Assembly (NCBI GenBank): GCA_951406725.2
Contig: OX597818.1
Location: forward strand, 129,518,001-129,582,000
DNA from: Octopus vulgaris
Taxonomy: Eukaryota
Reading direction: 5' to 3'
DNA: 64,000 nucleotides
Position numbers and translations under genes: made by a program
Shown: one piece after another, positions 1,430-61,628 of the stretch
Layout of the letters: the number at the start of each line of letters is the position of its first letter
How positions within the stretch are numbered: position 1 is the first letter of the stretch
The notes under the pieces: model-generated
What the model was told of the DNA's origin: nothing
Databases searched by the model: none
The model's input: the letters and a program-made list of their open reading frames with translations, nothing else

Positions 1430-2108
1430 TCCAGGTACGGCTGTGTGGTAAGAAGCTTGCTTTCCAGCCTTATAGTTCTGAGTTCAGTCCCAATGTGTGG
1501 CACCTTGGGCAAGGGTCGCCTATGGTAGCCTTGGGTTGACCAAAGTCTTGTGAGTGGCTCAGGTAGATGGAAACTGAAAGAAACTCATTATACCACCACC
1601 GCTGCCACCACCAGCACCATCGTTTAACGTCCACTTTCCATGCTGGCATTGGTTTGTACGGTTTGACTGAGCTGAAATTTACAGCAAAGCAAAAGATGAA
1701 GACAGGTGTATGAACAACAAACAGGTGTATTAGTTTGATACTTGGGAAAGTGAGTCTTTTACATTTCGAGCCTATGCTCTTCAACAGAAAGGAATAAGAG
1801 AAAATAAACAGAGAGAGAATAAAAGAACTTGTGGATTTAGTGATCAAGCATATGTATATATGCATGTGTATATCTTTATGTGTGTGTGTCTTTGTGTCTG
1901 TGTTTGTCCCACCACCACTGCTTGAAACCAGTGTTGTTCTGTTTGTGTCCCCGTAACTTAACAGTTTGGCAAAAGAGACCGATAGAATAAGTACCACATT
2001 TTAAAAAGAAAACAAAAGTACTGGAATCGATTCACTCGATTAAAAATTCTTCAAGGCAGTGCCCCAGCCTGGCCACAGTCAAGTTACTGACAAGTAAAAG
2101 GAAAAGAA
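1430..2108 (+). mobile_element. Degenerate SINE family A copy, interrupted by other retro-fragments (about 1590-1850)
   Basis: Head ggctgtgtggtaagaagcttgc..gttcagtccc, middle ccttgggcaag, tail aagtaaaagga; matches the copy at 47009-47402. Confidence 0.75.
1672..1850 (-). mobile_element. Putative PLE terminal-repeat fragment with variant hammerhead (other copies 20078-20150, 29358-29560)
   Basis: Three dispersed copies. Minus strand reads cttt-CTGTTGA-A-GAGC-atag-GCTC-GAAA-tgt-a-aaag. Confidence 0.55.
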
Positions 2109-2331
2109 ATGGATAATGGATATTTTAATAGAATCTGTTCTCCATATTCTTGGGGGCTTTTTTATTGTTTTACTTGTTTTAGTTTTTTGGCCATGTTAGG
2201 TCACCACTATGAAGAGCTTTAGTTGATCATACTGGCCCCAGTAATTAATTTTTAAAGTCTGGTACTTATTGATCATCTACTAAGTTACAGAACATTAAAA
2301 AACACACACACACACAAATACATACATACAT

Positions 2332-2532
2332 ATGAGGAAGGGGTTTTAAGGGTATCATGAAAGGCCTGGTTGGAGGCCCAACATTCCGAGTTCTTTTACA
2401 GGGTTTCGAAAAACAGAAGGACCACTGCAATAAGAATGTGGATCTGAGAGGGAAATATGTTCAATAAAATCATAATTAACTGATTCTCCTGTATTTTCTT
2501 TTACCCAAAGCCAGGAACTTTTCAGCACCCCA
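2332..2532 (+). mobile_element. Mariner-derived MITE (family also at 31494-31697 and 57249-57470)
   Basis: Right TIR aaagccaggaacttttcagcacccc; body homologous to the 57249 copy. Confidence 0.8.
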
Positions 2533-2662
2533 TACATACATACATACATACATACATACATACATACATACATACAAACAAACAAACAAATGTGGGCATA
2601 TGTAACAGGCTTTCATGTAGTTTCTGTCTACTTAGTTTTAATCGTAAAGAACGGTTCACTTT

Positions 2663-3016
2663 GGGTAAAAGGGTAAAGATCCCCTTCGGTCATGAATCAC
2701 CATGAAATTGCACCTAGGAAGCTCCCCTCTGAGGCACAAGCCCAGGCAAGGTTGTTTATGGAAAACCAGTAGTCACTCATGCATACATGGATAGGCCTCC
2801 CCTATCCATGCCACCAGTGTTATCCAAGGGAAAGGCAAAACCTGATACAGCTTGGCACCTGTGACGTCGCAACTCATTTCTACAGCTGAGTGAACTGGAG
2901 CAATGTGAAATAAAGTGACTTGCTCAAGAACACAACACACAGCCCAGTCTGGGAATTGAACTCACTACCTCATGATTTTGAGCCTGATGCTCTAACCATT
3001 GAGACATGCCCCTCCA
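2663..3016 (-). mobile_element. tRNA-derived SINE family D (CORE-like middle)
   Basis: Minus strand has A/B-box-like head then gtgttcttgagcaagtcacttt; homologous to 5508-5757, 52981-53296 and 56137-56451. Confidence 0.85.
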
Positions 3017-4073
3017 TTGAGGCTATAGTAAAAGACATTTGTCCATGATGCCATGCAATGGAACTGTACCCAGAGACTTCTTAGCCACACAATCATATAC
3101 ATTTTTTCTTTGTCTTTTTCTTTAATAATTTTTCTATATCTATTTTAATTTCTATAAATTTCTCTACTTGAATGTGTATAAATGTGTGTGTGTATATATA
3201 TATATATATGATGACATGTTCAAAGTCTATATATGTATATGTACTGGTGTATGTATTTTATGTTAGTTTTATTTCTATTTCTATTTGTGTATGAATTATA
3301 TATTTTTCTCCTCAATATTTTTTCACATGTCATCAAAATATAAAAAAAATATAATAAAAAAAAAACCAAACTAATTTATATTTTTTATGGCAGACATCAT
3401 ATTCATCAGAAACGACTGGTTTCTTGTGGAAATTTTGATAGATCACGATAAAAAGCATCAGCGGACAGTTGATGCAAACAAGAATTGAAAACTTGACAAG
3501 ATTTGCTTTTTATTTATTCATTTGTATTATTTTTTTAGAATATCTATTTATTGCTTTCTTTTTTCCTACTTAAAATAGTGCAAGGGATAGGAATTAATAT
3601 AAATTTGTTTTATAAGTTTTTGTCTCTTGTTTTTTTTCCTTGCTTTTAATCTGTTATTCTTATTTATAATTTTATTTTCATCACACCTGAATTGCTATTT
3701 ACTTTTGGGGGTGGGGAGTAGGCGTGTCAAAGAGAAATTTGAGATAGAGGGAGTAAAAACGAAAGTATAGTGGTTGGTGTCTCTCACCTGTCAAGTTAAA
3801 CCTCTGTCTCCTTGGCTGCATGTGAGAGATAAGTCTTTAAAACAGACAGATTTGCTGAAAAAGTAAAGCATTAGACAAACTGGCTTATATGATTTAAGTT
3901 TCTCTCTTTTTTCTCCAAGTTCAAAACTCTAAGAGGCTGACTTTACTTTTCATCTTTCTGGGATTTCAATAAAATAAATACAGGGGTGAAGACAAGTACA
4001 AATGCTTCACACTCAAAAATATGAGTTGAAGTCGACTTTGCTTTTCATCCTTTGGGGTCAACAAATTAAGTAC

Positions 4074-4298
4074 CTATTTCTTTATTACCCACAAGGGGCT
4101 AAACACAGAGGGGACAAACAAGGACAGACATAGGTATTAAGTCGATTACATCGACCCCAGTGCGTAACTGGTACTTAATTTATCGCCCCCGAAAGGATGA
4201 AAGGCAAAGTCGACCTCGGCGGAATTTGAACTCACAACGTAACGCAGACGAAATACCGCTAAGCATTTCGCCCGGCGTGCTAACGTTTCTGCCAGCAC
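4074..4298 (-). mobile_element. SINE family B, young copy (tail ...gccccttgtgggtaataaagaaatag)
   Basis: Head ctggcagaaacgttagcacg..gagttcaaattcc, core gtcgactttgcctttcatcctttcgggg; near-identical to 22851-23082. Confidence 0.88.
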
Positions 4299-4454
4299 AC
4301 CGCTGATGTGGGGTTGGTATTCTTGTGGCTTGAAGACACCTCAACAAATTAAGTACCAGTTGAGCACTGGGGTTGATATAATCGCCCAGTTCCCTCCCAC
4401 AGACATTGAGCCTATAGTAGAAAGGATTGTTATTATTATTATTATTAATAACAC

Positions 4455-5460
4455 GGTGGGCTGGCAGAATCGTTAACATGTCGGACGAAATGCTTAGTGG
4501 TATTTAATCCATTGTTGTGTTCTGAGTTCAAATTCTGCCAAGGTCAACTTTGCCTTTCATTCTCTCAGGGTTGATAAATTAAGTTCCAGTGAAACACTGG
4601 GATCGATGTAGTTGACTTATCTCCTCCACTAAGTTCCAGTGAAACACTGGGATCGATGTAGTTGACTTATCCCCTCCACTAAGTTCCAGTGAAACACTGG
4701 GATCGATGTAGTTGACTTATCCCCTCCACTAAGTTCCAGTGAAACACTGGGATCGATGTGTAGTTGACTTATCCCCTCCACTAAGTTCCAGTGAAACACT
4801 GGGATCGATGTAGTTGACTTATCTCCTCCACTAAGTTCCAGTGAAACACTGGGATCGATGTAGTTGACTTATCCCCTCCACTAAGTTCCAGTGAAACACT
4901 GGGATCGATGTAGTTGACTTATCCCCTCCACTAAGTTCCAGTGAAACACTGGGATCGATGTAGTTGACTTATCCCCTCCACTAAGTTCCAGTGAAACACT
5001 GGGATCGATGTAGTTGACTTATCTCCTCCACTAAGTTCCAGTGAAACACTGGGATCGATGTAGTTGACTTATCCCCTCCACTAAGTTCCAGTGAAACACT
5101 GGGATCGATGTAGTTGACTTATCCCCTCCACTAAGTTCCAGTGAAACACTGGGATCGATGTAGTTGACTTATCTCCTCCACTAAGTTCCAGTGAAACACT
5201 GGGATCGATGTAGTTGACTTATCCCCTCCACTAAGTTCCAGTGAAACACTGGGATCGATGTAGTTGACTTATCTCCTCCACTAAGTTCCAGTGAAACACT
5301 GGGATCGATGTAGTTGACTTATCCCCTCCACTAAGTTCCAGTGAAACACTGGGATCGATGTAGTTGACTTATCCCCTCCACTAAGTTCCAGTGAAACACT
5401 GGGATCGATGTAGTTGACTTATCCCCTCCCCTAAAATGGCTGCCCTTGTGGGAAAATTAT
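4455..5460 (+). mobile_element. SINE family B copy hosting a minisatellite
   Basis: SINE head and core at 4455-4580; tail ctaaaatggctgcccttgtg..attatt resumes after the array. Confidence 0.8.
4580..5431 (+). repeat. 50-bp minisatellite, 17 units, derived from SINE family B
   Basis: Unit taagttccagtgaaacactgggatcgatgtagttgacttatc(c/t)cctccac; unit 4 has a 2-bp insertion; no unique spacers. Confidence 0.97.
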
Positions 5461-8183: not shown

Positions 8184-8387
8184 CCTTTCTACTGGAGGCA
8201 CAAGGCCTGAAATTTTGAGGGAAAGGGCTAGTCAATTATATCAGCCCCAGTGCTCAATTGATACTTATTTTATTGACTCTGAAAGGATGAAAGGCAAAAG
8301 TGAATGTGGTGGAATTTGAACTCAGAATGTACAGCTGGAATCAGCGCTACTAAGTATTTTGTCTGAATAGTCAATGATCCTGCCAGC

Positions 8388-8388
<1 letters not shown>
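8183..8388 (-). mobile_element. SINE family B with (ATT)n tail
   Basis: cctttctact..ggcacaaggcctgaaatttt..aaaggatgaaaggcaaa..gaatttgaactcag. Similar copies near 12327, 22476, 23369, 40090, 42610, 46115, 50338 and 50870. Confidence 0.8.
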
Positions 8389-8445
<57 letters not shown>

Positions 8446-9987
8446 TACGCTGCAAATGACAAACAGCTGGAAACACTATTAAAGACAGTTCATGGATTTA
8501 CCAAAGAAATAGATATGAAATTTGGATTAGAAAAATGCGCCAAAGTAACCATGAAAAGAGGAAAACTAGTTAAGAGTAACAACATCACACTAGATAAAAC
8601 CAATGAAATAAAAGAATTAGACCAAAGCCAAACTTACAAATACTTAGGAATCCATGAACTAGATAAGACACAACACACACAAATGAAAGAGAAAATAAAA
8701 AAAGAATATTATAGACGAGTTAGATCAATACTAAAAACAGAGCTCAATGCTAAAAACAAGATAATAGGTATCAACACTTTAGCTGTCCCAGTTATAAGTT
8801 ACAGCTACAATATCCTTAACTGGACACGAAATGAACTGTCCAAAATAGATAGGAAAACAAGAAAAATACTGACAGGATCTAGGATGCATCACCCAAAATC
8901 TGACATAGAAAGACTATATATACAACGTATAGAAGGTGGTAGAGGCCTTATACAGCTGGAAAACTACTATAAAATAACCACCATAGGACTGCAAAAATAC
9001 CTACTTCAGAAGGAAGGAAAACTGATCCAGATAGCAGCAAAACACGAGCAAAACAAAAAACTGTTCTCAGTATTTAAGGAAGCTGACAAATACAAACAAG
9101 AAATCATACCACCTAATAAACACAAAGAAGAAGAAGAAGATGATGAAGAAACAACAAAAGCTATAAAACAAATGAAATCCAAACTAAAAATAGAACAGCA
9201 ACGAGCCATGATAAAACGATGGCAAGAAAAACCCCTTCATGGTAAATACTGCACTAAACTAAACGCAAAAGAAATAGACAAAGAAAAATCCCAGCAATGG
9301 TTGAGAAGCTCAGGACTCAAAGCAGAAACAGAGGGATTTTTAATTGCAGCACAAGACCAAAGCCTCCCCACCAGAAATTACCAAAAACATGTAATGAAAA
9401 GAAATATTACAAGTAACTGCAGAATATGTGGAGATGGACAAGAAACAATAAATCATATTATCTCTAGCTGCCCAGTCCTGGCTAAGAAGGAATATATTCA
9501 CAGACATGACAGAGTTGGAACCTACATACATTGGAAGCTATGCCAACATTATGGAATAACAACAGAAAAAAGATGGTATAGGCACACACCAGAAAAGGTC
9601 ACAGAAAACGAGAAAGCAACCATACTCTGGGATATGCCGATACACACAGATAGAGAAATTAAGGCCAACAGACCAGATATAGTTGTCAGAGATCATGAAG
9701 GAAAAAAATGCTTTCTAATTGATGTATCAATACCGGCAGATGACAACGTGTCTCTGAAAGAAATGGAGAAACTCTCAAAATACAAAGACCTGGAAATAGA
9801 GGTAACCAGAATGTGGAATCTAAAAACAGAAACAATTCCTATCATAGTAGGTGCATTAGGCATGATAAAAAAATATTCAGACAAATACATAACAAAAACA
9901 CCAGGACTTACAAACACATATAGCATACAGAAAATTGCACTACTAGGCACTGCACACATCCTACGCAGAACACTTTCCATACAATAA
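8446..9987 (+). CDS. C-terminal half of an R4/Dong-clade non-LTR retrotransposon ORF (end of RT, CCHC zinc knuckle, REL endonuclease); 5'-truncated
   Basis: Begins YAANDKQL, just after the missing YxDD. Contains MKFGLEKC, YKYLG, RLY..R.EGGRGL, LIAAQDQ, CRIC..ETINHIISSC, RHD and RPDIVV..IDVSIP..EKLSKY. The N-terminal poly-I of the predicted ORF is the (AAT)n target. Confidence 0.95.
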   Translation, partial: YAANDKQLETLLKTVHGFTKEIDMKFGLEKCAKVTMKRGKLVKSNNITLDKTNEIKELDQSQTYKYLGIHELDKTQHTQMKEKIKKEYYRRVRSILKTELNAKNKIIGINTLAVPVISYSYNILNWTRNELSKIDRKTRKILTGSRMHHPKSDIERLYIQRIEGGRGLIQLENYYKITTIGLQKYLLQKEGKLIQIAAKHEQNKKLFSVFKEADKYKQEIIPPNKHKEEEEDDEETTKAIKQMKSKLKIEQQRAMIKRWQEKPLHGKYCTKLNAKEIDKEKSQQWLRSSGLKAETEGFLIAAQDQSLPTRNYQKHVMKRNITSNCRICGDGQETINHIISSCPVLAKKEYIHRHDRVGTYIHWKLCQHYGITTEKRWYRHTPEKVTENEKATILWDMPIHTDREIKANRPDIVVRDHEGKKCFLIDVSIPADDNVSLKEMEKLSKYKDLEIEVTRMWNLKTETIPIIVGALGMIKKYSDKYITKTPGLTNTYSIQKIALLGTAHILRRTLSIQ

Positions 9988-10081
9988 CCATCAGAGCATC
10001 ACAACAAATCACAGCACATACCCAAGGCACACAGAGCTGCGTTCGGTAGTGAAGTGAAAGCACGCTATAAAAATAAAACTA

Positions 10082-10086
<5 letters not shown>
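8446..10086 (+). mobile_element. R4/Dong LINE, 5'-truncated, inserted in (AAT)n
   Basis: ORF plus about 100-bp 3' UTR, with (AAT)n on both sides; Dong elements are known to target (TAA)n. Confidence 0.93.
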
Positions 10087-20041: not shown

Positions 20042-20080
<39 letters not shown>

Positions 20081-21747
20081 GAAATGTATAGAAAAGCAAA
20101 AGACGAAGACAGGTGTATGAACAACAAGCAAGTGTATTAATTTAACACTCATTGCTTTTATGTTAAACCGTTGTATGTCCAAATTTGGTCAAATGCGTTT
20201 TGTTTTTCAATATTTCATTTTGCTTGCAATAACCAGTTCTTTTGGTTAATCTATCGTATCTTCAGCTGCTTCAGATGCCAAGATATGAAAATTGTCAAAG
20301 TGTAGTACAACAATTTAGCATTTTTCAAAAGTGTAGTAAGTCCCACATACAACAGTTTTGCGAAAATATTTCTGCCTGAAAATATCATACATGCATAGAG
20401 TTGCGATTTTATGCATCCAACAAAGTATTATTTTTAAGCTGAAACTGTTGCTAATGTAAAAAGAAATGGAATGGTGAAACCATTTTTTCATTTCTTGAAA
20501 AAGCAACGTTTTGGACTTATGACACTTTTATATAATAGCAACGCTATATATATATATCGGTACAATAGTACCTTCCTACCTACTTACCTACCTTTTGTAC
20601 CATGCTCCATACTATGGAACAAACTCGAATATAGAATCTATTAAAAATACATTATGATGTATGATTTATATTATTTGTAAAACTGATGAATAAAAATTTT
20701 AAATTGTATTAATCATTGTCTTTTACTGGTTTTGGATTGCAGCCAAGCTGGGGTATCACCTTTAAGGGTTTAACTGAGCATATGAACCCTGATAATTATT
20801 TTTAAGCTTATCCATATGTATTTACTGAACCACAATCAACAACATACCGTTTCTGTCTATCAAATTTCACTTAAAGTATTAATCAACTCAAGGCTATAGT
20901 AAAAGAAACTTGCCTAAGAAATTATACAATGAGACTGAACCCAGAACCACATGGATATGAATCAAAATTTTAACCACTGCCATGTCTGTGCCTGTATTAC
21001 TGATTTTTTTTAGAATCTATACTTGAATAAAGCAGCTACTATACTCTATAAGTTATAACTATGGATTTAAATCTCAGAATATGAATTTTACTTTAATGTG
21101 AAAATAAGGATGTAAAATCCTATATTAGAATTTGTTAAAACTTTACCAACATACGAGTAGCAGAATAATATTATAATAAATAGCTTATGTCTTCAATTTC
21201 ATTCTTTAGTTAAAATTGCTTACTTTTGTACATGAGATGGAAAATAAAAGATTACATTCTCATGGTAGAAGACGTCATGAGTAACAAATATTAAAAGATG
21301 ACGTTGGTAACTTTCAGGGATTTTGCGTCCCTGCAGATTCAGTGTTGCCTCTGTGAGCTTTTACGGCATCTAAAGAATCAAATGTTTACCTGAAAATTCA
21401 ATTTCCAAAGTAATAGTTCATAGTTTGCTCTAAACTTCCAACCATCTTACAGTTTTCAAAATAAGTGTTTATATATATATATGTTATTTATTTAAAGGAC
21501 ATAATAGATGACTACAAATGCTACCAATACTTCCATATGTAGAGAAATATCTCAGACATATTCTTCAGGCACAAATCACATCTCATAACGAATTAAAAAA
21601 TAAAATAAGAGAAGAAATGCAAAAAATCTGAGAAACATACAGAAAACATGGAAGGTTAAAAAAATGGAAAATGAAAGCACAAAAATAGTGCTCATAAAGT
21701 ATATACTCTCCTTTGCATTATATATATATATATATATGTATGTATAT

Positions 21748-21995: not shown

Positions 21996-22000
<5 letters not shown>
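21748..22000 (-). mobile_element. (TA)n-embedded element, opposite-strand homologue of 59963-60112
   Basis: gagggaataaaatccaaacttacaag..ttgaattgataaaagg is the reverse complement of 59975-60100. Confidence 0.75.
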
Positions 22001-23158: not shown

Positions 23159-23700
23159 GACTTTGCCTTTTTAATTCGTTATCTATCTATCTATCTGTAC
23201 ACACACACACACGCATATATACATATACATACACACACACATATATATACATATATATTTATACATATATGAGTTTGAAGCAATATATTACTTAGGTGGA
23301 TACCGTGGTGGCTCTCATTTGAGTTCTAGGTTACAGCTAACCACATCAACTGGTATTTAACGTCTATAAGGTGACGAGCTGACAGAAACATTAGCACGGT
23401 GGATGAAACGTTTAGTGGTATTTCAGCTGTCTTTACGTTTTGAGTTCAAGTTCCGCTGAGGTCGACTTTGCCTTTCATCATTTCAGGGACAGTAAATGAA
23501 GTACCAGTTGAGCACTAGGGTTGATCTAATCGACTGGTCGCCTCCCCCAAAATGTCGGGCCTTGTGCCTAGAGTAGAAAAGAGTATTTATTGTCTAAGAC
23601 TGCTATTAGTTGTCAGTCACTCTGTAAATTCTTTTGATGGATAATTCCATGTTTGCTTCATTAGACAGTAATATTTTCTGGAGTATATATTATCACTAAT

Positions 23701-23817
23701 TATAATGATATAGAATATGGAGATTTGTTCATCCTCAGAATATATTTTCTCTTAATTTTCTTGTAAAATAAGAGAAAATAAATTCTGAGGATGAACAAGT
23801 CTCCGTATTCTATATTG

Positions 23818-23822
<5 letters not shown>
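23701..23822. repeat. Inverted repeat, ~54-bp arms, next to (TA)n
   Basis: tagaatatggagatttgttcatcctcagaat.. / ..attctgaggatgaacaagtctccgtattcta. Confidence 0.9.
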
Positions 23823-28620: not shown

Positions 28621-29579
28621 CAATGTATAGATGTATACACACACACACACATATATTTTCAAAGGTAAGCTGAGAGAGAGAGAGTGGGAGAGAAAGCTTG
28701 CTGACTAGTTAATGAGACAGAGAAATAATTAGATATAACAATACAGAATGGCAGACAGATAGATAGATAGATAGACAGACATACAGATTGACAGGCAGAT
28801 AAAGAGAAAGACAAATAGGCATAGAGGGAGGCTGGCAGAAAGATATAATTAGACAGAAAGACTAGAACACAGAAGTGAAAGAGAGCTGAAAAAAAAATTG
28901 GAGAGCAACCTTCTACTACCACAAAAGATTTTAAAGACCTCTTTTGTAAAATTAAATACAAAATATTAAGCAAAGAAATATATAAAAAAAAGCAAATAAA
29001 ATTGTGGAAAAAATTTAATGAAAATAATAAAAGCATATTTTGATGGCAGTAACAACATTCAATAATTAAAATTGACAATGGAAGTTGAGTTACATGATAC
29101 CTGAGCAATAGAGAGACTTACGTGTTTGCTTTGAGAATGAATATGAAATTTAACATGAATGGTAGTCTTCTCACAACCACCTATCACATCAGCCATACTT
29201 CAATAATGACATCTTCATTAAAGCTAAGTAAATTTTCATGCAACAACATTGCTTTCACGTACAGAAACTTATGCACATGCACACACATGAATGATTTTTT
29301 ATTATACGTACACATGTATACACGCACACACACACATGCACACACATATTTATATATAGTTCAAATTTACAGAAAATAAAAGATGAAGACAGGTGTAGGA
29401 ACAACAAGCAGGTGTATTAGTTTAGCACTTGGGAAAAATGGAAAAGTCTTTTACATTTCGAGCCTATGCTCTTCAACAGAAAGGATTGAGAAGAAAAGAA
29501 AAAAATGGAGAAGGAATGAAAAAAATAGAAAGAGAAAAAAATATGTATAGGTTAAGGGTTCAACATAGTGAATACATAT

Positions 29580-29635: not shown

Positions 29636-30813
29636 GGAGGGAGAAAGAGAGAGTCAGTGAAGAACAGCTGAATGGTAAAGTGAAATGGCACACAATATTC
29701 AACAGATGAAACTACACTCAAGTGCTTTCTCTAATTTTTGAACAAAAAGAAATCACTTTATTTATCCTACATAATTCTCGTGTAAGACACTCTTGAATAA
29801 CATTGATTTATTAGTGAGTCTTTGACACAAAAATTTGAAGAACTTCAAATATTTATAACATATTTACAGGAAAGTCAGGGGATTTCTAAAAACAATTGCA
29901 GTTCTTGAATATCCCAAGATAATCATTCACCATTTCCTAGTGATGCACAATTATAAAAAAAATTTTAACAGTGACTTTATCTGAATTAGCTGTTACACAT
30001 GCAAAACCTGCACTGCTTTTATTATAAGTAAGAATGCTAAAAACAAATAAAACTAGAATTAAAATCTTGCAGTTACCTACATATGTGTTATTCCTGAAAA
30101 GTTGCTGCTTGATGGTAATTGCTTGGAGAAATCCATGATTTTCTGCACTGAAATGCATTGAAGTGGCAATTTTCCACCTAAGTCTTCTACTGGACTAACC
30201 AGACATAACTTCAAAATATGTATTTACCAACATAGACATTCTTTTGCTAACCGTCAAAGATGCATTGCAACTGTTTTATACATCAGGCTTCTCAAAGAGA
30301 CTACTGATCATACATAAAGTATTATATCATACACATGGGTTATGCAGAAGCATATCACCATAGAAGCTTTACAGCCAGGTGTCATTGCCTTCTGTGTGTA
30401 ACTGGAACAATGTTTATCTTACAAATCAAAATGGCTGAAACCTGAGGTCAGAACCCTTAAATCTCTGTAACCCTGTAAGTATGCATCAAAGTACACAAAC
30501 TACCTGGATACTCATAGAGCTCTTTGCTTTTGACTGGATAAAACTTTTGTGAAATTAAGCTCCCGTTTTTTAGCTTCCTTAAACGTATTTTCGAAGACTT
30601 CTTCCTCACATTCCCCTACATAGTGTCTTCTTGCCATATAACCATGTTTGCTGAATCATTTTTATCATTTTTTTGTAATTCCAATTTTGTTTATATCATT
30701 AATTTACATTTCAGTGGATGTTTGTTAGAGTGTGCATATTATTACTGGATGGCAGTCTTTGTAGCCAACTTAATGTGGATATATTATAAGAGTGGTATGG
30801 TATTGCGGTGTTC

Positions 30814-31053
30814 ATCCTGAGAAAGTCCCTCATGTAGACTTTTAGTGCATAGAAGCACAGAGACATTAGTAGCAGACAAATGTTTAACATCCAATAGTGG
30901 AAATACTATATCACGTAATTTTTGACTGCTGATGAGGTGTAAAACATGCCAAAATTACGTGATACAGTAGTACGACTGCTGTTGCTGGATATTTCTTGTC
31001 TGCTACTGACATTTATGTGCTTTTATGCACTATATGAGAGACTTTCTCAGGAT
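30814..31053 (+). mobile_element. Fold-back element with a hammerhead fold at the centre
   Basis: Imperfect inverted arms atcctgagaaagtc.. / ..gactttctcaggat; HHR at 30925-30968. Confidence 0.8.
30925..30968 (+). ncRNA. Minimal type I hammerhead ribozyme, G12 lost (likely CpG decay)
   Basis: ACTG-CTGATGA-GGTGT-aaaac-ATGCC-(a)AAA-TTACGTGAT-A-CAGT; stems I, II and III all pair. Confidence 0.72.
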
Positions 31054-31112
31054 TAATTCAGCAGTATCATGGTGCTCTCATAATATGTTCACATTAAGTA
31101 GAGTACAGAGAT

Positions 31113-31150
<38 letters not shown>

Positions 31151-47944: not shown

Positions 47945-48276
47945 TTTACATTATTTACATTATTTACATTTGATGGATATTTGTCCTCCTCTTGTTTGTT
48001 GTTAACATGACATTTTGGCTGATATACCCTTCAGCCCCCATCCGGTGTCTTGGGGAAATTTCGAACCTGGGTTCTCATTCCTGAGATATTTTTTGATGTT
48101 GTTGTTGTTATTATTATTATTATTGTCATTATTATTCAGGTCACTGCCTGGAATCAAACTCAGAATCTTGGAGTTAGTAGCCTGCACTCTTAACTACTAC
48201 GCCATATGCCCATGGTGTAGTGGTTAAGAGTACGGGGTACTAACCCCAAGATTCCAAGTTCAATTTCAGGTAGTGA

Positions 48277-48372
<96 letters not shown>

Positions 48373-48559
48373 CAACAACAACATCGAAAAATACCTTTCG
48401 AATGAGAACCTAGGTTCGAAATTTCCCCAAGACAACTGATGAAGGCCCGAGAGTATATCAGCTGAAACATTGTGTTAACAACAAACAAGATGAAGACAAA
48501 TATCCATCAAATGTAAATAACGTACATAGTGTACAGAATTCCTCATCTCTTAAATATAG

Positions 48560-48562
<3 letters not shown>
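47945..48562. mobile_element. Head-to-head fold-back element: tRNA-like head + (AAT)n + hammerhead in each arm, in (TA)n
   Basis: Arms 47945-48209 and 48212-48520 are reverse complements. Two-arm consensus head tggcgtagtggttaagag..gagttcgattcc; consensus HHR gacac-CTGATGA-A-GGCTG..CAGCC-GAAA-CGT-Y-gtgtt. Confidence 0.85.
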
Positions 48563-48687: not shown

Positions 48688-48930
48688 TATATAACTAATT
48701 TAGAGACAAACCACCATTCCACCACTCAGTCAATAAAGAACCAGTCCAAAGCCGTCCTGTGGGACATATACCATGCAAAATACTAATCTTCATTGACTGA
48801 GTTGGTGAATGGTAGTTCGTCTCTAAATTAGTTATATACATATATTATATATTGCATATTACAAAATTCGGTTTAATATTATTATACTGAATTTTACCTG
48901 TAAGGTTGGAACAATAATTTATTCCCTAAT
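48688..48930 (+). mobile_element. Fold-back element (~50-bp arms 48688-48739 / 48788-48838) with shared terminal motif, in TA-rich tract
   Basis: taactaatttagagac..ctcagtcaat / attgactgag..gtctctaaattagtta; ends cctgtaaggttgga..ttattccct, like 60070-60100. Confidence 0.7.
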
Positions 48931-49409
48931 ATTATTATTATTATTATTATTATTATTATCATATATACATAAATGGCGGTGCCCCAGCATGGCCACAGCT
49001 TGTGAGCTGAAACTAGATAAAAAAAAAATATATATATATATATATATACACACACATATATATATATATATACATACATATATATACACATACATACATA
49101 TATATATTGACATCTGCATTTTATCCAAGCACCCAAAGGACCTAACACTCAGACAAATACAGGAGTACATCCCCATAAATGAAACATCCCGCCATAATAA
49201 ATAGGAGATACACATAGAACATAGTGATACCTCAATACTCACCTTTTGTACATTCACAGGTAGATTTGTTAGTAGGCTGTTATATAGATGAATATATACA
49301 TATATATATTGATAAAAATGGTAAGACAACAAAAGAAAGTGACCTCGATATTATGTAAATAGAGGAATTTATCTGTAAATGTAATATGTGACAATTATTT
49401 GGTAGCCAT

Positions 49410-49470
49410 GATAAAACTCTGAGTTTCAGATGCCGAGGTGGAAATCCATGCCACTATCTCTTCAGTTATC
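49410..49470 (-). ncRNA. Minimal type I hammerhead ribozyme in a putative PLE terminal region (about 49310-50030)
   Basis: GATAA-CTGAAGA-GAT..ATC-t-GAAA-CTCaGAG-T-T-TTATC; perfect 5-bp stem I and palindromic stem III. Confidence 0.78.
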
Positions 49471-51949
49471 CGGCCATTGAAAAAATGCTATGAAAAATGA
49501 CCGTTATACAGAGGGAATTTACTGTGTGATTGACCGTTATTAAGACAAAAGAGCTATTTGAATGACCGCTAAGTGAGGGGAGGGAGTAAAAGTAAGGGAG
49601 TAAAAAAAGTTCATAGTATTCAGGTAAGGGCGCATGTTCATACCTACACATGCGCACCCGCACACCCACGTGCGTGCGCCTAAAAGTATACATTCATCAA
49701 CCCTCACTTGAAAACGTACACATCCTCACTCGCACCATTCGCCAAATGTATATGTATATACATACAAACCTACACACATGCACGGGCACCATAAAGGTTC
49801 ATACACATGTCTATATATGCACAAGCACAAGAAAAAACAGGGCTAAGGGTAACAATACAGAAAAAAGGTATAAAGGAGTATACAAAGAGTAAACCACGTC
49901 TATATATGCACATACCCTTTTGCATGCACACACACACATACACAAGCACAAAAAAGATCATACATAGGTCTTCATGCGCACATACACAAGAAAAATCAGG
50001 GCTAAAGGCAAAAAAAACAGGGCTGGAGTCAATGTAATTGACCAATACTCTTCCGTCAAAATTGCTGGACTTAGAAGCAATTATTGCTCTTATGAGTGAA
50101 ATGGTAGAATTACTAGAGCATTACAATAACAAGAAGAAGAAAAAAGGCTTTGTGGCATTTATTCAGATTCTTTACATTCTGATCTCAAATCTCATTGAGG
50201 TCAACTTTGCTTTTCATAACTCTGAAGATGGGATCATACTACTCAAGTAGTGGGGTTGATGGTTTGGCTAACCATTGCCTTTCAAAATTGTTGATCTCAT
50301 ACCTAAAGTTAGAAAGCATTATCGTCATTATTATTAATGCAGTGAGCTGGCAGAATCATTAGCATGCTGGGCGAAATGCTTGTGGTATTTTGTCCATCTT
50401 CACGTTCTGAGTTCAAATTCTGCCAAGGTTGATTTTTGCCTTTTATCCTTTCGGGATCAATAAAATAAGTACCAGTCAGGTACTGGGGGTTAACGTAATT
50501 GACTAACCTGCTCCCTCAAACTTTCTGGTGTTGTGCCAAATTTTGAAGCCATTATTATTATTAGTGTGGTGGATGGAAGATTAGTAGAGAATCAGACAAA
50601 AGCCTTGTGATATTTTGTCATGTCTCTTTAGCCTTTGAGTTCAAAACCCACCAAATTCATCTTTGCCTTTCATTATTCTCCAGAATAACGAAAGGATAAT
50701 CGCTGAAATGAATATAATTGACTGTATTCTCCCTCAGAATATGTGGCCTTGTACTTGTGTGATGGTGAAAGTCAGAATCATAGGACTGATGGATCAGCAC
50801 TGGTCTGGGGTTAAGCAACGACCACAAGATCTAATATTAATCCAATATTATGATTTGAGGAAAGAAACGTGGCGAGCTTGTGGAGTCATTAGCACATTAG
50901 ACAAAATGCTTAGCAGCATTTCTTCTGAATCATTATGTTCTGAGTTCAAATCCTGCCACGGTTGCCTTTCATTCTTTCGGAGTCAATAAAATACCAGTCA
51001 AGTACTGATGTTGATGTCATTGATTATATTCTTCCCCTCAAAACTAACTGACCCTGTGCTAAAATTTAAAAGGATTATTTGAGAAAAGAAAACAAAACAA
51101 AAAAGTACAATACTAACAAAAGACAGTAGATTCACAATGCCCAGATGAGGCAAACCTATTTTCCTTCCCTACAATCCATAGCCCACCCATACACAACAAC
51201 ATGGTACTCCAGTGAGATATTTGTCTCTAGTAAAACAGTCCATTCTGCAGCTGCTGCTGCTACTACTGCTGATGGTGATGCTTATACAGTGGTATTGGTG
51301 ATAAAATAATGCAGTTGAAGTCTCGTTGCATCGGTAATCTGGGGATTCTTGTCTCATACACTACAGCTGCTTGCCAAAAGAAAAAAAAAAAGAAAATTTT
51401 ATTCCTTTATTTTAAGGCAATTTTGCTTTTATATTTTTTTGCTGCTTTTGAAATTTTTTTTTTTTTAGAATTTTAATTGAATTGGAAATTAAACTGAAGG
51501 GATGGCTTATCCCTGCTTATTGGCTAGCTTCCTTGCATGCTTGTTTCAAAGCTTTCCATTAGAACAGAAAGATAAAGAAAAAGAAAGAGAAAGGAAAGAG
51601 CACAGGCGAGAGAAAGAAGGGTAGAGACAAAGAGAGAGAGAGAGAGAGAAAGTAGATGAGAGGGGCAATCTACTTCACATGTGACAAAGTTGTAAAAGAA
51701 TAGCCAAGACTTGCAGAAAATGCAGTCTGGATTCTGTGCAAGTTGTAGGCATCTGTCGAAACTAATTTTGACATTGGATTTTTCGGTATTTTTTTAAGAG
51801 CTCAAAAGTCTTAAGACTGCTCTGCTGTAGTTGTTACTGCATCATGAGTGTTAATACATAATGCACTGAAATATACGCATAATTATACATGCATATACAC
51901 ACGTACATACAAATACAGACACATATAGGGATGTAAATTATAAATGGCC

Positions 51950-53962: not shown

Positions 53963-54429
53963 ACATGGAAACATTCTTGCACACATATCTAATGTAATGT
54001 TAAAAACATTTAAAAAACAATACAGAAGGAACAAATTCTAACAAACATGATAGACTAGTCAAATACTTGAAACGAGTGTGGAGTGTCTTGACATTTTGGA
54101 CATTGGTCCTTATTCAGAAAGAAAAAGAAACATTGGGAGAAAAAGAGTGAGAGCGAAAGTGGAGGAAAACGTTAAAAAAAATCAATTAAAATAAAGATGC
54201 AGGGGTGGGGTGAAGGGCTAAAAGGTGGAGGTGAATGCAATTCTATGAGTGAGGTTAAGAAGGGAGTTGGAATGGGGGCTTGTGTGCATGTGTGAAAATG
54301 AACAAAGAAGAAAAACAAAGTTGAATCAGAGAACAAAAAATTTTGAGATGGTAAAGTCCAAGATGGTGGTGGAAGAACATTGATCCAAGAAGATAAAAAC
54401 TGAAAATGTTGGAAGGTGAGACCACATGT

Positions 54430-54812
54430 AGGAGCACTCCGTCGGTTGTGACGATGAGGGTCCCAGCTGATACGATCAACGGAACAGCTTGCTCATGATA
54501 TTAACGTGCTAGTGGCTGAGCCCTCCACAGACACGTGTACCCTTAACGAAGTTCTCGGGGATATTCAGCGTGACACAGAGAGTGACAAGGCCGGCCCCTT
54601 GCAATACAGGTACAAAAGAAACAGGAAGAAAGAGCGAGAGAAAGTTGTGGTGAAAGAGTACAGCAGGGTTCACCACCATCCCCTGCCGGAACCTCATGGA
54701 GCTTTAGGTGTTTTCGCTCAATAAACACTCACAACGCCCGGTCTGGGAATCGAAACCGCGATCCTCCGACCGCGAGTCTGCTGCCCTAACCACTGGGCCA
54801 TTGCGCCTCCAC
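54430..54812 (-). mobile_element. SINE family C, tail type 3, with 12-bp TSD
   Basis: TSD gagaccacatgt (54418-54429) / gagaccacacgt (54813-54824). Confidence 0.92.
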
Positions 54813-55099
54813 GAGACCACACGTGCACACTGGAACAACAGAAAATGGTCAAGTTGAAGGAGGACTGTATAAAAGTCTTCTTGTTTTTAGAGGAGAGCTA
54901 AGGAAAAAGGAGAGGAAAGCAAAGGAAGCATGTCTGCATGGGCGTGTGGGAGGGTGCGAATAGATATAGAATTAGCAGCGGTCAAGTGACAAGTGGAAGA
55001 GGGAGAGAGTAAAAGTGAGAGAGTCAAAGATGTGAATCAAAACACATTTTGTCAAAGAGCGGATGCTTGGATGTTAGTGTGGGGGTTAGGTAGAGGTAT

Positions 55100-55447
55100 G
55101 GTGGCTGTAGGAGACAGGTCTTATGTAGGAGAAAAGGGTAAAAAGGAGAGGGGTGAGACACAGGTGTATAATTTGGAAGCAGGCAGTTGGTGGACTGGGG
55201 TAAGAATGCAGGTAGGTAAACTGAGTAAGTGTTCCCTCTAGAAACGAGAGGTGAGAGATTCCATGTTTGTTGGGGTTAGGTGGCTGTAGGAGACAGGTCA
55301 CATGTAGGAGAGAGGGTAAAAGGGAGTGTGGTGAGACACAGGTGTATAATTTGGAAGCAGGCAGTTGGTGGACTGGGGTAAGAATGCAGGTAGGTAAACT
55401 GAGTAAGTGTTCCCTTTAGAAATGAGAGATGAGAGATTCCATGTTTG
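55100..55447. repeat. Tandem duplication of about 180 bp
   Basis: gtggctgtaggagacaggtc...gagattccatgtttg at about 55101 and 55280. Confidence 0.92.
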
Positions 55448-55802
55448 AAGCCAAAGTTAAGGACTAATATGTGTAGGGTGGAGTGGTCAATAAGATGGAA
55501 AGGTGGAATGACAGGTGATCTGGATGTCTTTGAGGTGCTTTGTAAATCTATTGGAGATTTGGTAGCCATTTTGTCTGATGTAAATTGAACTGCAAATGGA
55601 ATACTGGAACACTTAAATAACTTTGATAGAAGTGCAGTAGAAAGTGTCCTTAGCATGAAGAGTGGTGTTGAAAAGAAATGGGCAGATGTGACAACCACAA
55701 TGAGTAAACGAACTTGTCATGTGTTGAGCCTGAGCCTCTAAGTTGTGATTGCACATCCACTTTTCTATGCTTGCATTTGTCAGATGGAGTTTACTGAGGC
55801 AG

Positions 55803-56085: not shown

Positions 56086-56136
<51 letters not shown>

Positions 56137-57470: not shown

Positions 57471-59192
57471 TATATGCAGTCACTCAACCTGCAAGAAATA
57501 GCAACTAAATCTTCTTCAACCTATACGCTACTGTTTATATATATGTGAAAGAGAGCTCATTGGATAATGCAGTCTCTGATACACTATGGTTGGATAAAAT
57601 TCAGGAAGATCATGACCAGAAAAACCTTTGATCAATGCAATATGACTTGATGTCAAACAGCAACAATAACAACTACAAGATAGTAAAACAGGTAAGGGAT
57701 AAAGAAGGAGGGACAAAACATGAAAAATAATTGTGAAGTTGTTTTCTGACTAAAATTTAAGTTAAATAGATGCTGTGACCATCTTTCTAGAGGGGTCATT
57801 TGATGTTAGTAAAAAAGTAAAAAAAGAAAAGAAAAAATAACAAGCAAATTAAGAAAAAAAAATATTATTAAAACAAGTGATAATAATTAAGTTTCTATAC
57901 CAATGAATAGATCGACAAGCTGTTATGTGTAGTCTTACATTTAGAGTTTTAATTATTATATTTCCTGAGAAATAAACTTGAGAAGAAAAAGCAGAGAAAA
58001 CTGTTAGAAAGTTTCAGAAAGAATTTCGTTATTCTTAGAAAACAAAATATGGATACTTTGCTACAGAACATTTACTGACAAGAAATATTTTTCTCTGATC
58101 ATTCACAATGAATTTGTGAAAGATTTCATTTTATTCATGCTTTTTTTGTTGTCATTCTAACCTGAACTCTTCTTCTTTTCAACTTTACCTCTTTTCTTCA
58201 TAACTTTAGAGAAGTCAACTAAAGTGGTTGAGAGATCTGTGTTGTTTATTTATTTATGTATTCATTTTTATTTATTTTTATTTATTTATTTATTTTTTTT
58301 GGTAAATTTTTAAAAATCTAATTTAATTATTCATTAATTCATTTATTTATATATTTATTTTTAGTGAATAGAGAAGAATCAAAATGTTACATTTGGTAAA
58401 GTGTTTATTGCATTTACAGAATTCTTTGAAATGGGTTTCAAGACAATAGTTTCTTAATTATCCAAAACCATCAGACTTTTAGTAAAATGGTCGATTCTAT
58501 ATTTCTTGAAATAAGCGAGAAGGAAGATGGTGAAAAAGTAGCAGAGGGAGAGGGTGAGAGAGAAGGGTTTTGAAATAAATTTTAAATAAAGAGAATCTGT
58601 TGCTTTATGTCAATGAAAATGGTAAAAATCTGAAGAAACATAGCAGACAAAAATCTTTGAAATGAATGTTTGAGAAGAGTCACTTGGTTGATAATTGAAA
58701 GAAAACGAAGGGTAAGAAAAACAACAGCAAAGCATATGACATATTTCCTATACAACAATATGGAAGATGTCACCAGAAAGAAGGAAGGAAAAGAAGAAAG
58801 GCAAAAGAAGAAGAAGAAAAGAAGAGAAATGATAGATTGATGGATAAATTCGAAAGAACTTAACATAGAAGATTATAAAAGAAAGACAGAAGGAAATAAT
58901 GAAATAATGAACAAGAAAAGAAAAGAAAAGAAAAGGGGAGAAAGAAACAAAGTGAATAAAAGATGGAGTGAAATCAAATAATATAAAGAATGCCATCAGA
59001 TGATGCTACTGAATTCTAGAATTTCCATATATTTTACATGAACCAACATCTTCTACTTTGCTATTTTCTTATAGTATCACTGGTCACCTAGTTTGTAGTA
59101 GTTTCTGGGCAAATTCAATACAGAATTATAAAAAGGTGCATATTAATGATTTCTTTTAACTCTTTATATATATATATATATATATATATATC

Positions 59193-59673
59193 TCAAAATA
59201 AGCAACAAGAATGACTCTGGTAATTTGGTACGATCGTTTCGTACTACATCGTTTTATTAAATGTTGTAAGTATTACAATAGATTTAAAATGCCGAGTACT
59301 CATCAGCCAATTATAGAGGTTTTCCATTAATACAAAAATTTTCATATCAAGTGGCAACATTAAAAATTCAAATCCACATCTTTGTCTATATATACCTTCT
59401 CTATAATGTTGCCACTTGATATGAAAATTTTTGTATTAATGGAAAACCTCTATAATTGGCTGATGAGTACTCGGCATTTTAAATCTATTGTAATACTTAC
59501 AACATTTAATAAAACGATGTAGTACGAAACGATCGTACCAAATTACCGGAGTCATTCTTGTTGCTTATTTTGATTATAATCACCCCACGGATTTTTATGG
59601 ATAACACCATACAAAATTCTGGTGCATCTAAATTAAGTACCATATTCATTTGAATCTAAATTTTTGCTGAACT
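59193..59673 (+). mobile_element. Young fold-back hammerhead element in (TA)n: 170-bp inverted arms, 41-bp spacer, ~100-bp unique tail
   Basis: 59193-59362 is the reverse complement of 59404-59573 with one mismatch seen; (TA)n on both flanks. Confidence 0.92.
59456..59541 (+). ncRNA. Intact type I hammerhead ribozyme (mirror copy on the minus strand, about 59225-59310)
   Basis: TTGG-CTGATGA-GTACT-(49 nt)-AGTAC-GAAA-CGATCG-T-A-CCAA: full core, G10.1-C11.1 pair, palindromic stem III ACGATCGT, GUA cleavage triplet after 59537. Confidence 0.88.
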
Positions 59674-59706
<33 letters not shown>

Positions 59707-59928
59707 GCATATATATATATATATATTCTTTAATTCTTTTATTTGTTTCAGTCATTTGACTGCGGCCATGCTGGAGCACTGCCTTTAGTCGAGCGAATCG
59801 ACCCCAGGACTTATTCTTTTATCATTGTCATCATCATTTAACGTCTGCTTTCCAATGCTGGCATGGGTTGGATGGTTTGATAAGCGCTGGCAAATCAGAA
59901 CACAGTTACAAGCTCTATTATCTGTGAG

Positions 59929-59966
<38 letters not shown>

Positions 59967-60779
59967 TAGGAAAAAAACACCTTTTATCAATTCAAAATGA
60001 ATAATTAAATTACACCATCTATAAATTATATTGTGTGGAATTTGATTTAGTATTTCTAATTTGAATTCTTTTTCCTTGTAAGTTTGGATTTTATTCCCTC
60101 AATTAATAATTATTATATATATATATATATATATGAATACACACACACAAACACACATACATACATACAAATATATGTATACATGAATATGTAGATGATA
60201 TGCATGTTAGATATGATGTATGACTCTCCTCTCCCCTTCACCGTTCCCCTCCCCTCTCTCTCTCTCTTCCTCCTTGACTCTCTCATTGCTCACACATGAC
60301 CAATGGCTATCTATCTTTCTTTCTTCCACTTCCTTCCTAAAGACAAAACCTGCTTTTGCCTGTCTCTTCTCAAAGCTTGTTTTTCCAGCGTTCACCACTT
60401 AACCGCCCTCACCATTTGTTTTACTGCTTTGTTCTCACTGTCCTGTTTTTGTTGCTACTTTAACCCTCCACAAAAAATCCCAAATTTTATTTAATTTGCT
60501 TTGGAGGAAGGACTGTTTTAACGAAGTCGTGTCTTGTCCCCACTTTCGAAATGCAGAGTAAATAAAACAGGGGGACAACTGATGAAGGGATTGTTCTTTA
60601 TGTTGCCTGTCTTGTTTCTCTATTTGTTTTATTCGTTGTTTGAATAAAAGTTCGTTTTCCATACCTTTGTTTTTTATGTTCTCGTTTCTCATTTTGTCTA
60701 CGTTTTTTGATGTCCTGTACCCATATATGCATGTATATATACATATATATGTAGGCATGTACATGTATGTATGTATATA

Positions 60780-60824
<45 letters not shown>

Positions 60825-61262
60825 TGAATGTATGTACGTACATACCAACCTACTTACCTATCTATCTGGCTGCCTGTAATCCATGTATCTATCTATCTAT
60901 TTATTTCTATCTATTGATTGGCTTTTTTTTCCATGATCCCTTTTGATTGAAATTCAACCCACTTTATTTTTCTCACTTCTCCCCAAAAAGAAAAGCTCTA
61001 CTTTGTATTCAATAATACATATATTTATATATAAAATGGCTGAAATGTTACATAGATGACTTGAGTGCTAAAAGTTTTGTGAATAGCACTTATCTGAAAC
61101 TCTCAACTTTTGAGTCATGTTTCTAACTCTTCAGCTAATTAATCCATTTTTGTGTGTGTGTGATTTTATGCTTAGTTACAATTAAAACAATAAAAGACTG
61201 TACTGAATACAGCATGTATTTATTAGTTTTACAAGAAGAGAGATGACAGTGACTTCGAATGT

Positions 61263-61293
<31 letters not shown>

Positions 61294-61409
61294 TATGTAT
61301 ACACATACATACACACACGCACACACACACATATATATACTAAATTAATGTAGACAGCAATTTGCCTGTTTCACCAAAAGAGAAAACTATAATTGTCACT
61401 AAATGTGAC

Positions 61410-61628
61410 TAGGGTGTTAGAAACACCTACATTGATTGCTAGAAATAAATGCTAAAAAACTCCAGTGCTGAAGTCAAAAAACGTAATTGTTTACATATAT
61501 ACTGACAGGGGCTATCTTGGATGATTATAGCCCCTGTCAGTATATATGTATACAATTATGTGCTTTGACTTCAGCATTAGAGAATTTTAGCTCTTATTTC
61601 TAGCAATGTAGGTGTTTCTAACACCCTA
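61410..61628. repeat. Inverted repeat, ~105-bp arms, 11-bp loop, between TA/CA tracts
   Basis: tagggtgttagaaacacctacattg..ctgacaggggctat / atagcccctgtcag..caatgtaggtgtttctaacacccta. Confidence 0.92.

What the first reader, a model, noticed from the sequence alone, without database searches (positions are those of the whole stretch)
1672..61628. Window-wide group of unrelated HHR and fold-back elements associated with (TA)n tracts
Seen: at least six sequence-unrelated families with minimal type I HHR folds (1755/29447 -, 30925 +, 48431 +/48004 -, 49410 -, 54087 -, 59456 +/59225 -), plus fold-backs without a readable HHR (23701, 48688, 61410). Most lie against or near (TA)n and none has a poly-A tail or TSD. 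Primary sequences differ, but stem I pairing and a short palindromic stem III recur, which argues against chance. Inference: a dense, easily overlooked PLE-derived ribozyme mobilome using TA microsatellites as landing sites, parallel to Dong in (AAT)n.
Basis: partly seen in the sequence, partly recalled or inferred. Interest (0 to 1): 0.72.

Follow-up and report, generated by a model that had tools for sequence, protein, structure and literature searches.

The report
Penelope retrotransposon stubs bearing hammerheads
The ribozyme-like motifs and mirror-image repeats in this likely octopus DNA are real repeat copies: six families are cut-off ends of Penelope-type jumping genes and two are short non-coding units likely copied by the same enzymes, so they are known kinds, although one family carries a tRNA-like head that likely serves as its promoter.

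Summary
The cited sites are copies of genome-wide repeat families, eight of nine with a type I hammerhead fold at family level; only 2 of the 9 window motifs pass a strict descriptor. They are not one new system. Three families (59456, 49410, 48688) are 3' ends of Hydra-clade Penelope-like elements. Two (1755/29447, 54087) are Neptune-type ends. One (48431) is a Poseidon-type end with a tRNA-like head. Two (61410, 30925) are retrozyme-like tandem units, and 23701 is unassigned. The fold-backs are the known inverted 5' copy. (TA)n landing holds for Hydra and Neptune families (24/26, 21/24, 19/30 versus 3% background) but not for the Poseidon family (1/29). Hydra-1_Obim, with a hammerhead and (TA)n preference, is already published from an octopus (PMC8557442 supplement). 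Extras: likely Pol III transcription of the Poseidon element, a U at core position 6 in one family, and two retrozyme pieces joined to Hydra RT fragments. The scan found the same mix, and the tRNA-headed element, on other DNA of this genome. Cleavage and expression are untested.

The parts
59192..59673 (+). Family A: 3' UTR/pLTR stub of a Hydra-clade PLE. Direct copy about 59363-59673 with a 95-bp tail (59579-59673) and an inverted tail-less arm at 59192-59362. Intact hammerheads at 59460 (+) and 59306 (-). TA runs on both sides.
47947..48562 (+). Family B: head-to-head pair of pLTR stubs of a Penelope/Poseidon-type PLE (tRNA-like head, (AAT)n, hammerhead, fixed 3' end). Inverted copy 47947-48211, direct copy 48211-48562; the pivot lies at the start of the head. 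Both hammerheads (48436+, 48045-) are decayed.
29359..29530 (-). Family C: 3' end of a Neptune-type PLE; hammerhead core at 29479 with U at position 6; 8 bp of TA at the 3' end.
1671..1830 (-). Family C copy, core at 1787; no TA at its end.
20065..20149 (-).
49309..49900 (-). Family E: 3' UTR of a Hydra-clade PLE resembling published Hydra-1_Obim; near-intact hammerhead at 49465; 9 bp of TA at the 3' end.
53995..55750 (-). Family F: old 5'-truncated Neptune-type PLE. Decayed linker and GIY-YIG at about 55490-55700, 3' UTR interrupted by a SINE (54433-54803), decayed hammerhead at 54117; no TA at the end.
   Evidence: (tblastn E 8e-9, 34%)
48694..48927 (+). Family G fold-back: extreme 3' end of a Hydra-clade PLE. 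Inverted tail-less arm about 48694-48790 (-), direct arm with tail to 48927 (+). The family hammerhead lies about 250 bp further in and is cut off here.
61340..61650 (+). Family I fold-back: two partial arms of a 356-nt tandem non-coding unit (retrozyme-like) whose hammerhead is not included in this copy; the inverted arm stops at the family's commonest 3' end.
30749..31116 (+). Family D fold-back: old (69-86% identity) retrozyme-like unit, tandem period about 325-350 bp in some loci. Hammerhead at 30929 with G12 lost. Other copies continue past the point where this one meets the TA run.
23684..23818 (+). Family H fold-back: dispersed repeat with two preferred 3' ends at TA/CA-rich sequence; no hammerhead and no ORF assigned.
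63764..64000 (-).
8371..10084 (+). The name is recalled; Pfam shows zf-RVT and RVT_1 below cut-off.
   Evidence: 3 of 3 ends at AAT

Best explanation
Six of the nine families are 5'-truncated 3' ends of protein-coding Penelope-like retrotransposons (three Hydra-clade, two Neptune-type, one Poseidon-type), and two are non-coding tandem hammerhead units that likely ride on the same enzymes. Shown: each PLE family has a fixed 3' end, variable 5' truncation, a hammerhead in the 3' repeat, and often an inverted 5' arm that lacks the tail. Inferred from PMC11167929 and PMC8557442: the GIY-YIG nicks AT-rich DNA, the RT starts at one of two internal sites in the RNA (with or without tail), usually stops early, and a second copy primed on the other strand gives the fold-back. 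Shown: Hydra and Neptune families, which have a Cys linker before the GIY-YIG, end in (TA)n, while the Poseidon family, in which I saw no such linker, does not. Inferred: the linker steers the nuclease to existing TA runs. The hammerheads would cleave only as dimers or with protein help (untested), and most window copies are decayed.
For: A: 28 of 30 loci found with the GIY-YIG peptide carry family A downstream in the same orientation; Pfam GIY-YIG E 7e-5, above cut-off. A related 947-aa RT+EN ORF (L205, 73% DNA match to family A) has RWK, DKT, CxCX5C, CxxC and CxH, the Hydra signature. E and G: Hydra-type RT/EN pieces joined to the family UTR in L138, L140 and L194/L196; the L140 piece resembles Hydra-1_Obim by eye. 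C: Neptune-type EN with linker about 1.2 kb upstream in L087, with UTR shared by L065, L067, L090. F: EN remnant in the window. B: 19 of 20 loci found with the upstream coding piece carry the head or body downstream. TA of 8 bp or more at the 3' end: A 24/26, E 21/24, C 19/30, B 1/29; copies met incidentally A 11/14, E 7/7, C 8/10 (window copies included); background 3.4% of 4,680 positions. Family A 5' junctions: TA in 14 of 30 by script, 23 of 30 by eye on the print; 13 of 30 have an inverted piece, 11 of them starting at the same tail-less point. Family I: 356-nt unit, 28 of 67 pieces longer than one unit, 3' ends in two clusters (25 and 21 of 67) away from the cleavage site.
Against: Pfam found no family in the full L205 ORF and only a sub-threshold RVT_1 in the B ORF, so clade calls rest on motifs and by-eye comparison, without a tree. 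E, G, C and F are each linked to coding sequence by one to three loci only. The C and E genome queries included about 11-13 bp of TA flank, which favours TA-flanked hits; the incidental sets are small and contain a few duplicated loci. Only the best 40 of up to about 4,000 candidates were scored per search. No empty site was found, so pre-existing TA is inferred. No window motif folds as a monomeric hammerhead. H has no hammerhead or ORF. D and I have no ORF link except two junctions. The TA contrast is one Poseidon family against three linker-bearing families.
Confidence: 0.85

Rival explanations
1. One new class of non-autonomous hammerhead fold-back elements that targets (TA)n.
For: Two families (I, D) are non-coding tandem units with hammerheads and fold-backs; short stubs far outnumber coding copies among the loci seen.
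Against: Six families join PLE coding sequence of three different clades; family B does not target TA; fold-backs have variable pivots and 17 of 30 family A copies have none.
Confidence: 0.08
2. The TA runs are made at or after insertion (repeat addition by the telomerase-related RT, or slippage from a short TATA seed) rather than being existing landing sites.
For: Many C ends have only 6-10 bp of TA; family G carries a TATATA-like stretch inside its own tail; no empty site was seen.
Against: Family A has TA on the truncated 5' side too (14 of 30 by script, 23 of 30 by eye); family B, with the same kind of RT, has no TA tract (1/29); PMC8557442 describes (TA)n as insertion preference.
Confidence: 0.2
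3. The fold-backs are MITEs of TA-duplicating DNA transposons.
For: Inverted arms flanked by TA at 23684, 48694, 59192 and 61340. Family H has no hammerhead or ORF assigned.
Against: Arms are unequal (tail on one side only), pivots differ between copies, and most copies of G, H and A are one-armed and run on into hammerhead- or ORF-bearing sequence.
Confidence: 0.06
4. The motifs are chance matches in AT-rich, low-complexity DNA.
For: 7 of 9 window motifs fail the strict descriptor; no Rfam hammerhead hit; fold z-scores near zero for 5 of 6 motifs.
Against: 0 strict hits in 30 shuffles; eight families with different DNA keep core, stem I, stem II and a palindromic stem III in their majority sequences, D and F once CpG decay at G12 is allowed.
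Confidence: 0.02

Closest known systems
Hydra clade of Penelope-like elements, including Hydra-1_Obim of Octopus bimaculoides (Craig et al. 2021, PMC8557442; passages, section 11 and supplement rows and alignment excerpts seen)
   Same: RT plus C-terminal GIY-YIG, RWK/DKT/CxCX5C motifs, hammerhead near the 3' end, (TA)n preference, inverted 5' copy and tail.
   Different: Families A and G are other families with long stem II inserts (58 and about 100 nt) and a tail of about 95 bp against the 30-40 bp described; A is young (96-99% identity among the best copies).
Neptune clade PLEs (PMC8557442 passages; Arkhipova 2006 seen only as cited there)
   Same: [quoted passage not shown]
   Different: Family C has U instead of the conserved A at core position 6 in 27 of 29 readable copies.
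Penelope/Poseidon PLEs such as anole PAc (PMC11167929, parts 1-2 of 4 read) and min-HHRs of metazoan PLEs (PMC4209133, parts 1-2 of 4 read)
   Same: Family B: RT plus GIY-YIG, pLTR with min-HHR, head-to-head inversions, no (TA)n preference.
   Different: The pLTR begins with a tRNA-like A-box/B-box head at which most stubs start, and the coding strand lacks T4 runs.
Metazoan non-LTR retrozymes (PMC7229834, passages seen; bioRxiv 10.64898/2026.07.22.740005, parts 1-3 of 5 read)
   Same: Families I and D: non-coding units of about 325-356 nt, one type I hammerhead per unit, head-to-tail copies longer than one unit.
   Different: Mostly dispersed copies of under two units with inverted arms and two preferred 3' ends; stem III is a long perfect palindrome; circular RNA and cleavage not shown.
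Schistosome Sm-alpha/Sj-alpha SINE-like elements (second-hand, PMC6765202 passages)
   Same: Pol III-type promoter together with a hammerhead.
   Different: Those are non-coding tandem repeats; family B is the terminal repeat of a coding PLE.

Membership tests
Hydra-clade PLE (families A, E, G) | Single ORF with RT and C-terminal GIY-YIG upstream of the repeat | tested here: met
   A: 28 of 30 EN loci and a 947-aa ORF in the related L205. E, G: fragments in one to two loci each.
Hydra-clade PLE (families A, E, G) | RWK, DKT, CxCX5C linker, CxxC and CxH, no CCHH | tested here: met
   All read in the L205 ORF against the definition; CxCX5C in L011 and, by eye, in G locus L196. Not all motifs were seen for E.
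Hydra-clade PLE (families A, E, G) | Hammerhead in the 3' repeat and (TA)n insertion | tested here: met
   For G the tail-bearing ends are at TA in only 1 of 10 and look (ATT)n-rich.
Hydra-clade PLE (families A, E, G) | Placement in the RT phylogeny | not tested
Neptune-clade PLE (families C, F) | CX2-5CxxC linker before a GIY-YIG with internal cysteines and histidines | tested here: met
   L087 (decayed, across a frameshift); window 55490-55700.
Neptune-clade PLE (families C, F) | RT upstream of the EN | not tested
   The loci held end just upstream of the linker.
Penelope/Poseidon PLE (family B) | RT plus C-terminal GIY-YIG without a Cys linker, pLTR with min-HHR | tested here: met
   ORF pieces in L267, L271, L274, L276, L281; RVT_1 E 0.001, below cut-off. 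The clade name is by motif and recall.
tRNA-derived SINE (family B) | Non-coding element independent of an autonomous element's own sequence | tested here: not met
   Head and body are the terminal repeat of a coding PLE in 19 of 20 loci.
tRNA-derived SINE (family B) | tRNA-related head with A and B boxes | tested here: inconclusive
   Box-like motifs are visible; ARAGORN found no tRNA in the window or 7 loci and Rfam no tRNA hit in L058. The likeness to tRNA is recalled.
Non-LTR retrozyme (families I, D) | Non-coding unit of a few hundred bases with one type I hammerhead, in tandem | tested here: met
   I: 356-nt unit, 28 of 67 pieces longer than a unit. D: period about 325-350 bp in 3 of 8 loci checked.
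Non-LTR retrozyme (families I, D) | [quoted passage not shown] | tested here: inconclusive
   No piece reached two units (longest 597 bp); only 43 loci were examined.
Non-LTR retrozyme (families I, D) | Self-cleavage and circular RNA | not testable with these tools
   Only contigs were listed, for family A; no raw RNA reads.
MITE of a DNA transposon (fold-backs) | Fixed terminal inverted repeats of equal extent on both ends | tested here: not met
   Unequal arms, variable pivots and one-armed copies in A, G, H and I.

The most novel reading that the evidence does not exclude
Family B is an autonomous Poseidon-type retrotransposon read by RNA polymerase III from a tRNA-like head inside its own terminal repeat: 22 of 24 heads are not preceded by the upstream UTR, several head-to-head pairs pivot at the head, and the coding strand has 1 T4 run in 5,945 nt against 12 expected. 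Beside it, the 356-nt and about 330-nt retrozymes are copied by Hydra-clade RT: they show the PLE two-end signature and inverted arms, and two pieces are joined directly to Hydra RT fragments. One genome would thus name the enzyme behind animal retrozymes and allow a side-by-side test of whether the Cys linker sets (TA)n targeting.
Probability: 0.45. Interest if true: 0.6.

Novelty: new member of a known kind. Interest (0 to 1): 0.33.

Why it matters
As a whole the finding re-detects published PLE biology in a repeat-rich cephalopod genome, and it shows that Rfam misses these hammerheads. Three details could matter to specialists. First, Hydra, Neptune and Poseidon families sit in one genome and differ sharply in (TA)n use, which bears on the linker-targeting hypothesis stated in PMC8557442. 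Second, retrozyme copies carry PLE-type ends and two are fused to Hydra RT pieces, which bears on the open question of which enzyme mobilises animal retrozymes. Third, a coding PLE with a likely Pol III head was not found in my paper searches (limited library).

Tried and rejected
Rfam on the window gave only microRNA-type matches to microsatellites in the 150 of 235 rows shown and nothing at gathering score in 8 family loci. ARAGORN and Rfam did not recognise the B head as tRNA. Pfam missed the full Hydra ORF. Monomer folding did not give hammerhead structures. Expression: no RNA holder listed for family A; this is no evidence either way. Empty-site search by laying four sets of contigs on 58850-59930 gave no joint across the insertion, and the flank contigs stop at the TA run. 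The first TA count mis-set the end of family B and dropped loci with identical flanks; one search replaces it, and only its background and flank prints are used. One search crashed after four families; one search completed the rest. A hammerhead next to family H in L248 could not be shown to belong to H. I first read B as a stand-alone SINE and dropped this. I first took family A for Neptune and corrected it to Hydra. Lunse et al. 2017 (small PLE hammerhead variants) was not held, so I could not check whether U at position 6 is described there; one search for 'A6U' listed only a twister paper. Outputs were cut in the middle; statements rest on the visible rows. Supplements of the bioRxiv preprint were not seen and may list further retrozyme-PLE links.
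Full report
Setting. The window is animal repeat DNA from a 2.8-Gb assembly, likely an octopus (inferred from repeat content and likeness to published octopus elements). It holds 60 TA runs of 12 bp or more; 9% of positions lie within 50 bp of one. Its one long ORF is a LINE fragment ending in (AAT)n.

Observation. All cited sites exist. My type I descriptor gave 2 strict hits against none in 30 shuffles, and 6 hits with one core mismatch against a mean of 0.17 in 12 shuffles. Four window motifs are clearly decayed. No motif folds as a monomeric hammerhead, which fits min-HHRs thought to act as dimers (PMC4209133) but is also no support for activity. Genome searches made every site a repeat family, with first-look candidates A 2,161, B 3,478, C 3,886, D 47, E 3,972, F 10, G 155, H 189 and I 1,879; at most 40 were scored each. 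Family majority sequences of A, B, C, E, G and I fold as type I hammerheads with a palindromic stem III; D and F do so with one core mismatch at a CpG site and a 3-bp stem I. Intact copies: A 22/25, E 17/25, I 10/30, B 9/30, C 7/30 with position 6 free, G 1/5, D 0/13, F 0/10.

Hydra-clade ends (A, E, G). Family A copies are 96-99% alike, share one 3' end and are cut at many 5' points. Locus L011 has a GIY-YIG upstream. Of 30 loci found with that peptide, 28 carry family A downstream in the same orientation. A related element (L205) has a 947-aa ORF with RT and EN and the RWK, DKT, CxCX5C, CxxC and CxH motifs that define the Hydra clade, although Pfam finds nothing in it. Family E is joined to Hydra-type EN and RT pieces in L138 and L140, and family G in L194/L196, which are one locus. 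The supplement of PMC8557442 lists Hydra-1_Obim from an octopus with (TA)n preference and a sense-strand hammerhead; the L140 piece resembles it by eye. The 48688 fold-back is the last 100-240 bp of family G, whose hammerhead lies further in.

Neptune-type ends (C, F). L087 carries a decayed linker and GIY-YIG about 1.2 kb upstream of the family C hammerhead, with the UTR shared by three other C loci. In the window a similar EN remnant lies at 55490-55700, upstream of the 54117 motif on the same strand. Family C has U at core position 6 in 27 of 29 readable copies; whether it still cleaves is unknown.

Poseidon-type end (B). The unit is a tRNA-like head, (AAT)n and a hammerhead body. Earlier scan notes suggested it is the repeat of a coding element, and I tested this. 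L054 has RT/EN sequence running into the head, and 19 of 20 loci found with that coding piece carry head or body downstream. In the loci found with the body, 22 of 24 heads are not preceded by the UTR, and the window pair pivots at the head start. Five coding copies have 1 T4 run in 5,945 nt against a shuffled mean of 12 (minimum 4 in 300 shuffles). This fits Pol III transcription but does not show it, and neither ARAGORN nor Rfam calls the head a tRNA.

Retrozyme-like units (I, D) and H. Family I is a 356-nt unit; 28 of 67 pieces in 43 loci exceed one unit and none reaches two. Its 3' ends cluster at two places (25 and 21 of 67), far from the predicted cleavage site, like the two RT starts of PAc. 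The loci were selected by my queries and the unit was derived from them. Family D is old, with a period of about 325-350 bp in 3 of 8 loci checked. Three Hydra RT hits occur in 79 distinct D, H and I loci; two directly follow a retrozyme piece in the same orientation (L242, L098). None occurs in 90 B, C and F loci. Two cases are a hint of template switching, not proof. H remains unassigned.

TA landing. A TA run of 8 bp or more follows the 3' end in A 24/26, E 21/24, C 19/30 and B 1/29, against 3.4% background. The C and E queries included some TA flank; copies met incidentally gave C 8/10, E 7/7 and A 11/14. Family I has 13/67. Family A often has TA on the 5' side too (14/30 by script, 23/30 by eye), and 11 of 13 inverted pieces start at the same tail-less point. 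In the window, 4 of 10 elements touch a TA run (p 0.009), but 1755 and 54087 do not, the B pair is atypical for its family, and ordinary SINE ends also sit at TA in a quarter to a third of cases for three of the motifs tested. No empty site was recovered.

Mechanism. Shown: fixed 3' ends, 5' truncation, inverted arms without tail, links to PLE ORFs, clade-dependent TA flanks. Inferred from PMC11167929 and PMC8557442: GIY-YIG nicking, internal RT initiation at two sites, early stop, second copy in reverse. Inferred: the Cys linker directs Hydra and Neptune to existing TA runs, and retrozyme RNA borrows this machinery. Untested: cleavage, circles, expression, Pol III use.

Comparison and verdict. 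Truncated single min-HHRs, opposite-strand pairs 100-700 bp apart and high motif diversity per genome are in PMC4209133. Inverted copies, tails and (TA)n bias are in PMC8557442. Retrozymes are in PMC7229834 and their PLE origin in the 2026 preprint. The passages seen of a 2026 octopus repeat annotation count Penelope-like families and the text has no occurrence of 'ribozyme' or 'hammerhead'. Other windows of this scan reported the same mix; these notes are not independent support. The finding is real, correctly traced to PLEs, and mostly new members of known kinds, with the tRNA-headed Poseidon element and the retrozyme-Hydra junctions as the parts worth following.

Noticed in passing
window 39330-39790, 55800-56088, 60481-60782 (+): Three copies of a further family ending at (TA)n, with a GAAA-palindrome half motif followed by a second CTGANGA plus hairpin that lacks GAAA; possibly a PLE end with a split or doubled hammerhead.
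   Followed up: partly
window 21738-22001 and 59961-60113: Two copies of an AT-rich family flanked by TA on both sides that shares a 10-bp tail-end motif with family G; likely another Hydra-type end.
   Followed up: partly
window 63764-64000 (-); L224 5540-6203: Young family J (98.6% to L224), ending at TA, with a hammerhead motif and inverted arm in L224.
   Followed up: partly
   Followed up: no
window 19782-19867: 86-bp fold-back, 95% complementary, with no copy in the loci held.
   Followed up: partly
window 4580-5434: 17 tandem copies of a 50-bp unit, 98% alike, which looks like part of an abundant SINE family.
   Followed up: no
L011 2-977, L205 ORF: The Hydra ORF has a long Asn-rich, (AAT)n-coded stretch between RT and EN that stays in frame.
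   Followed up: no
family C, window 1787 and 29479: U instead of A at hammerhead position 6 in 27 of 29 readable copies of a family with about 3,900 candidates.
   Followed up: partly
L242 about 1100-1450, L098 about 1265-1460: Retrozyme pieces of families I and D joined directly to 5'-truncated Hydra-type RT fragments.
   Followed up: partly
window 55100-55447: 178-bp tandem duplication in the 3' UTR of the family F Neptune remnant.
   Followed up: no
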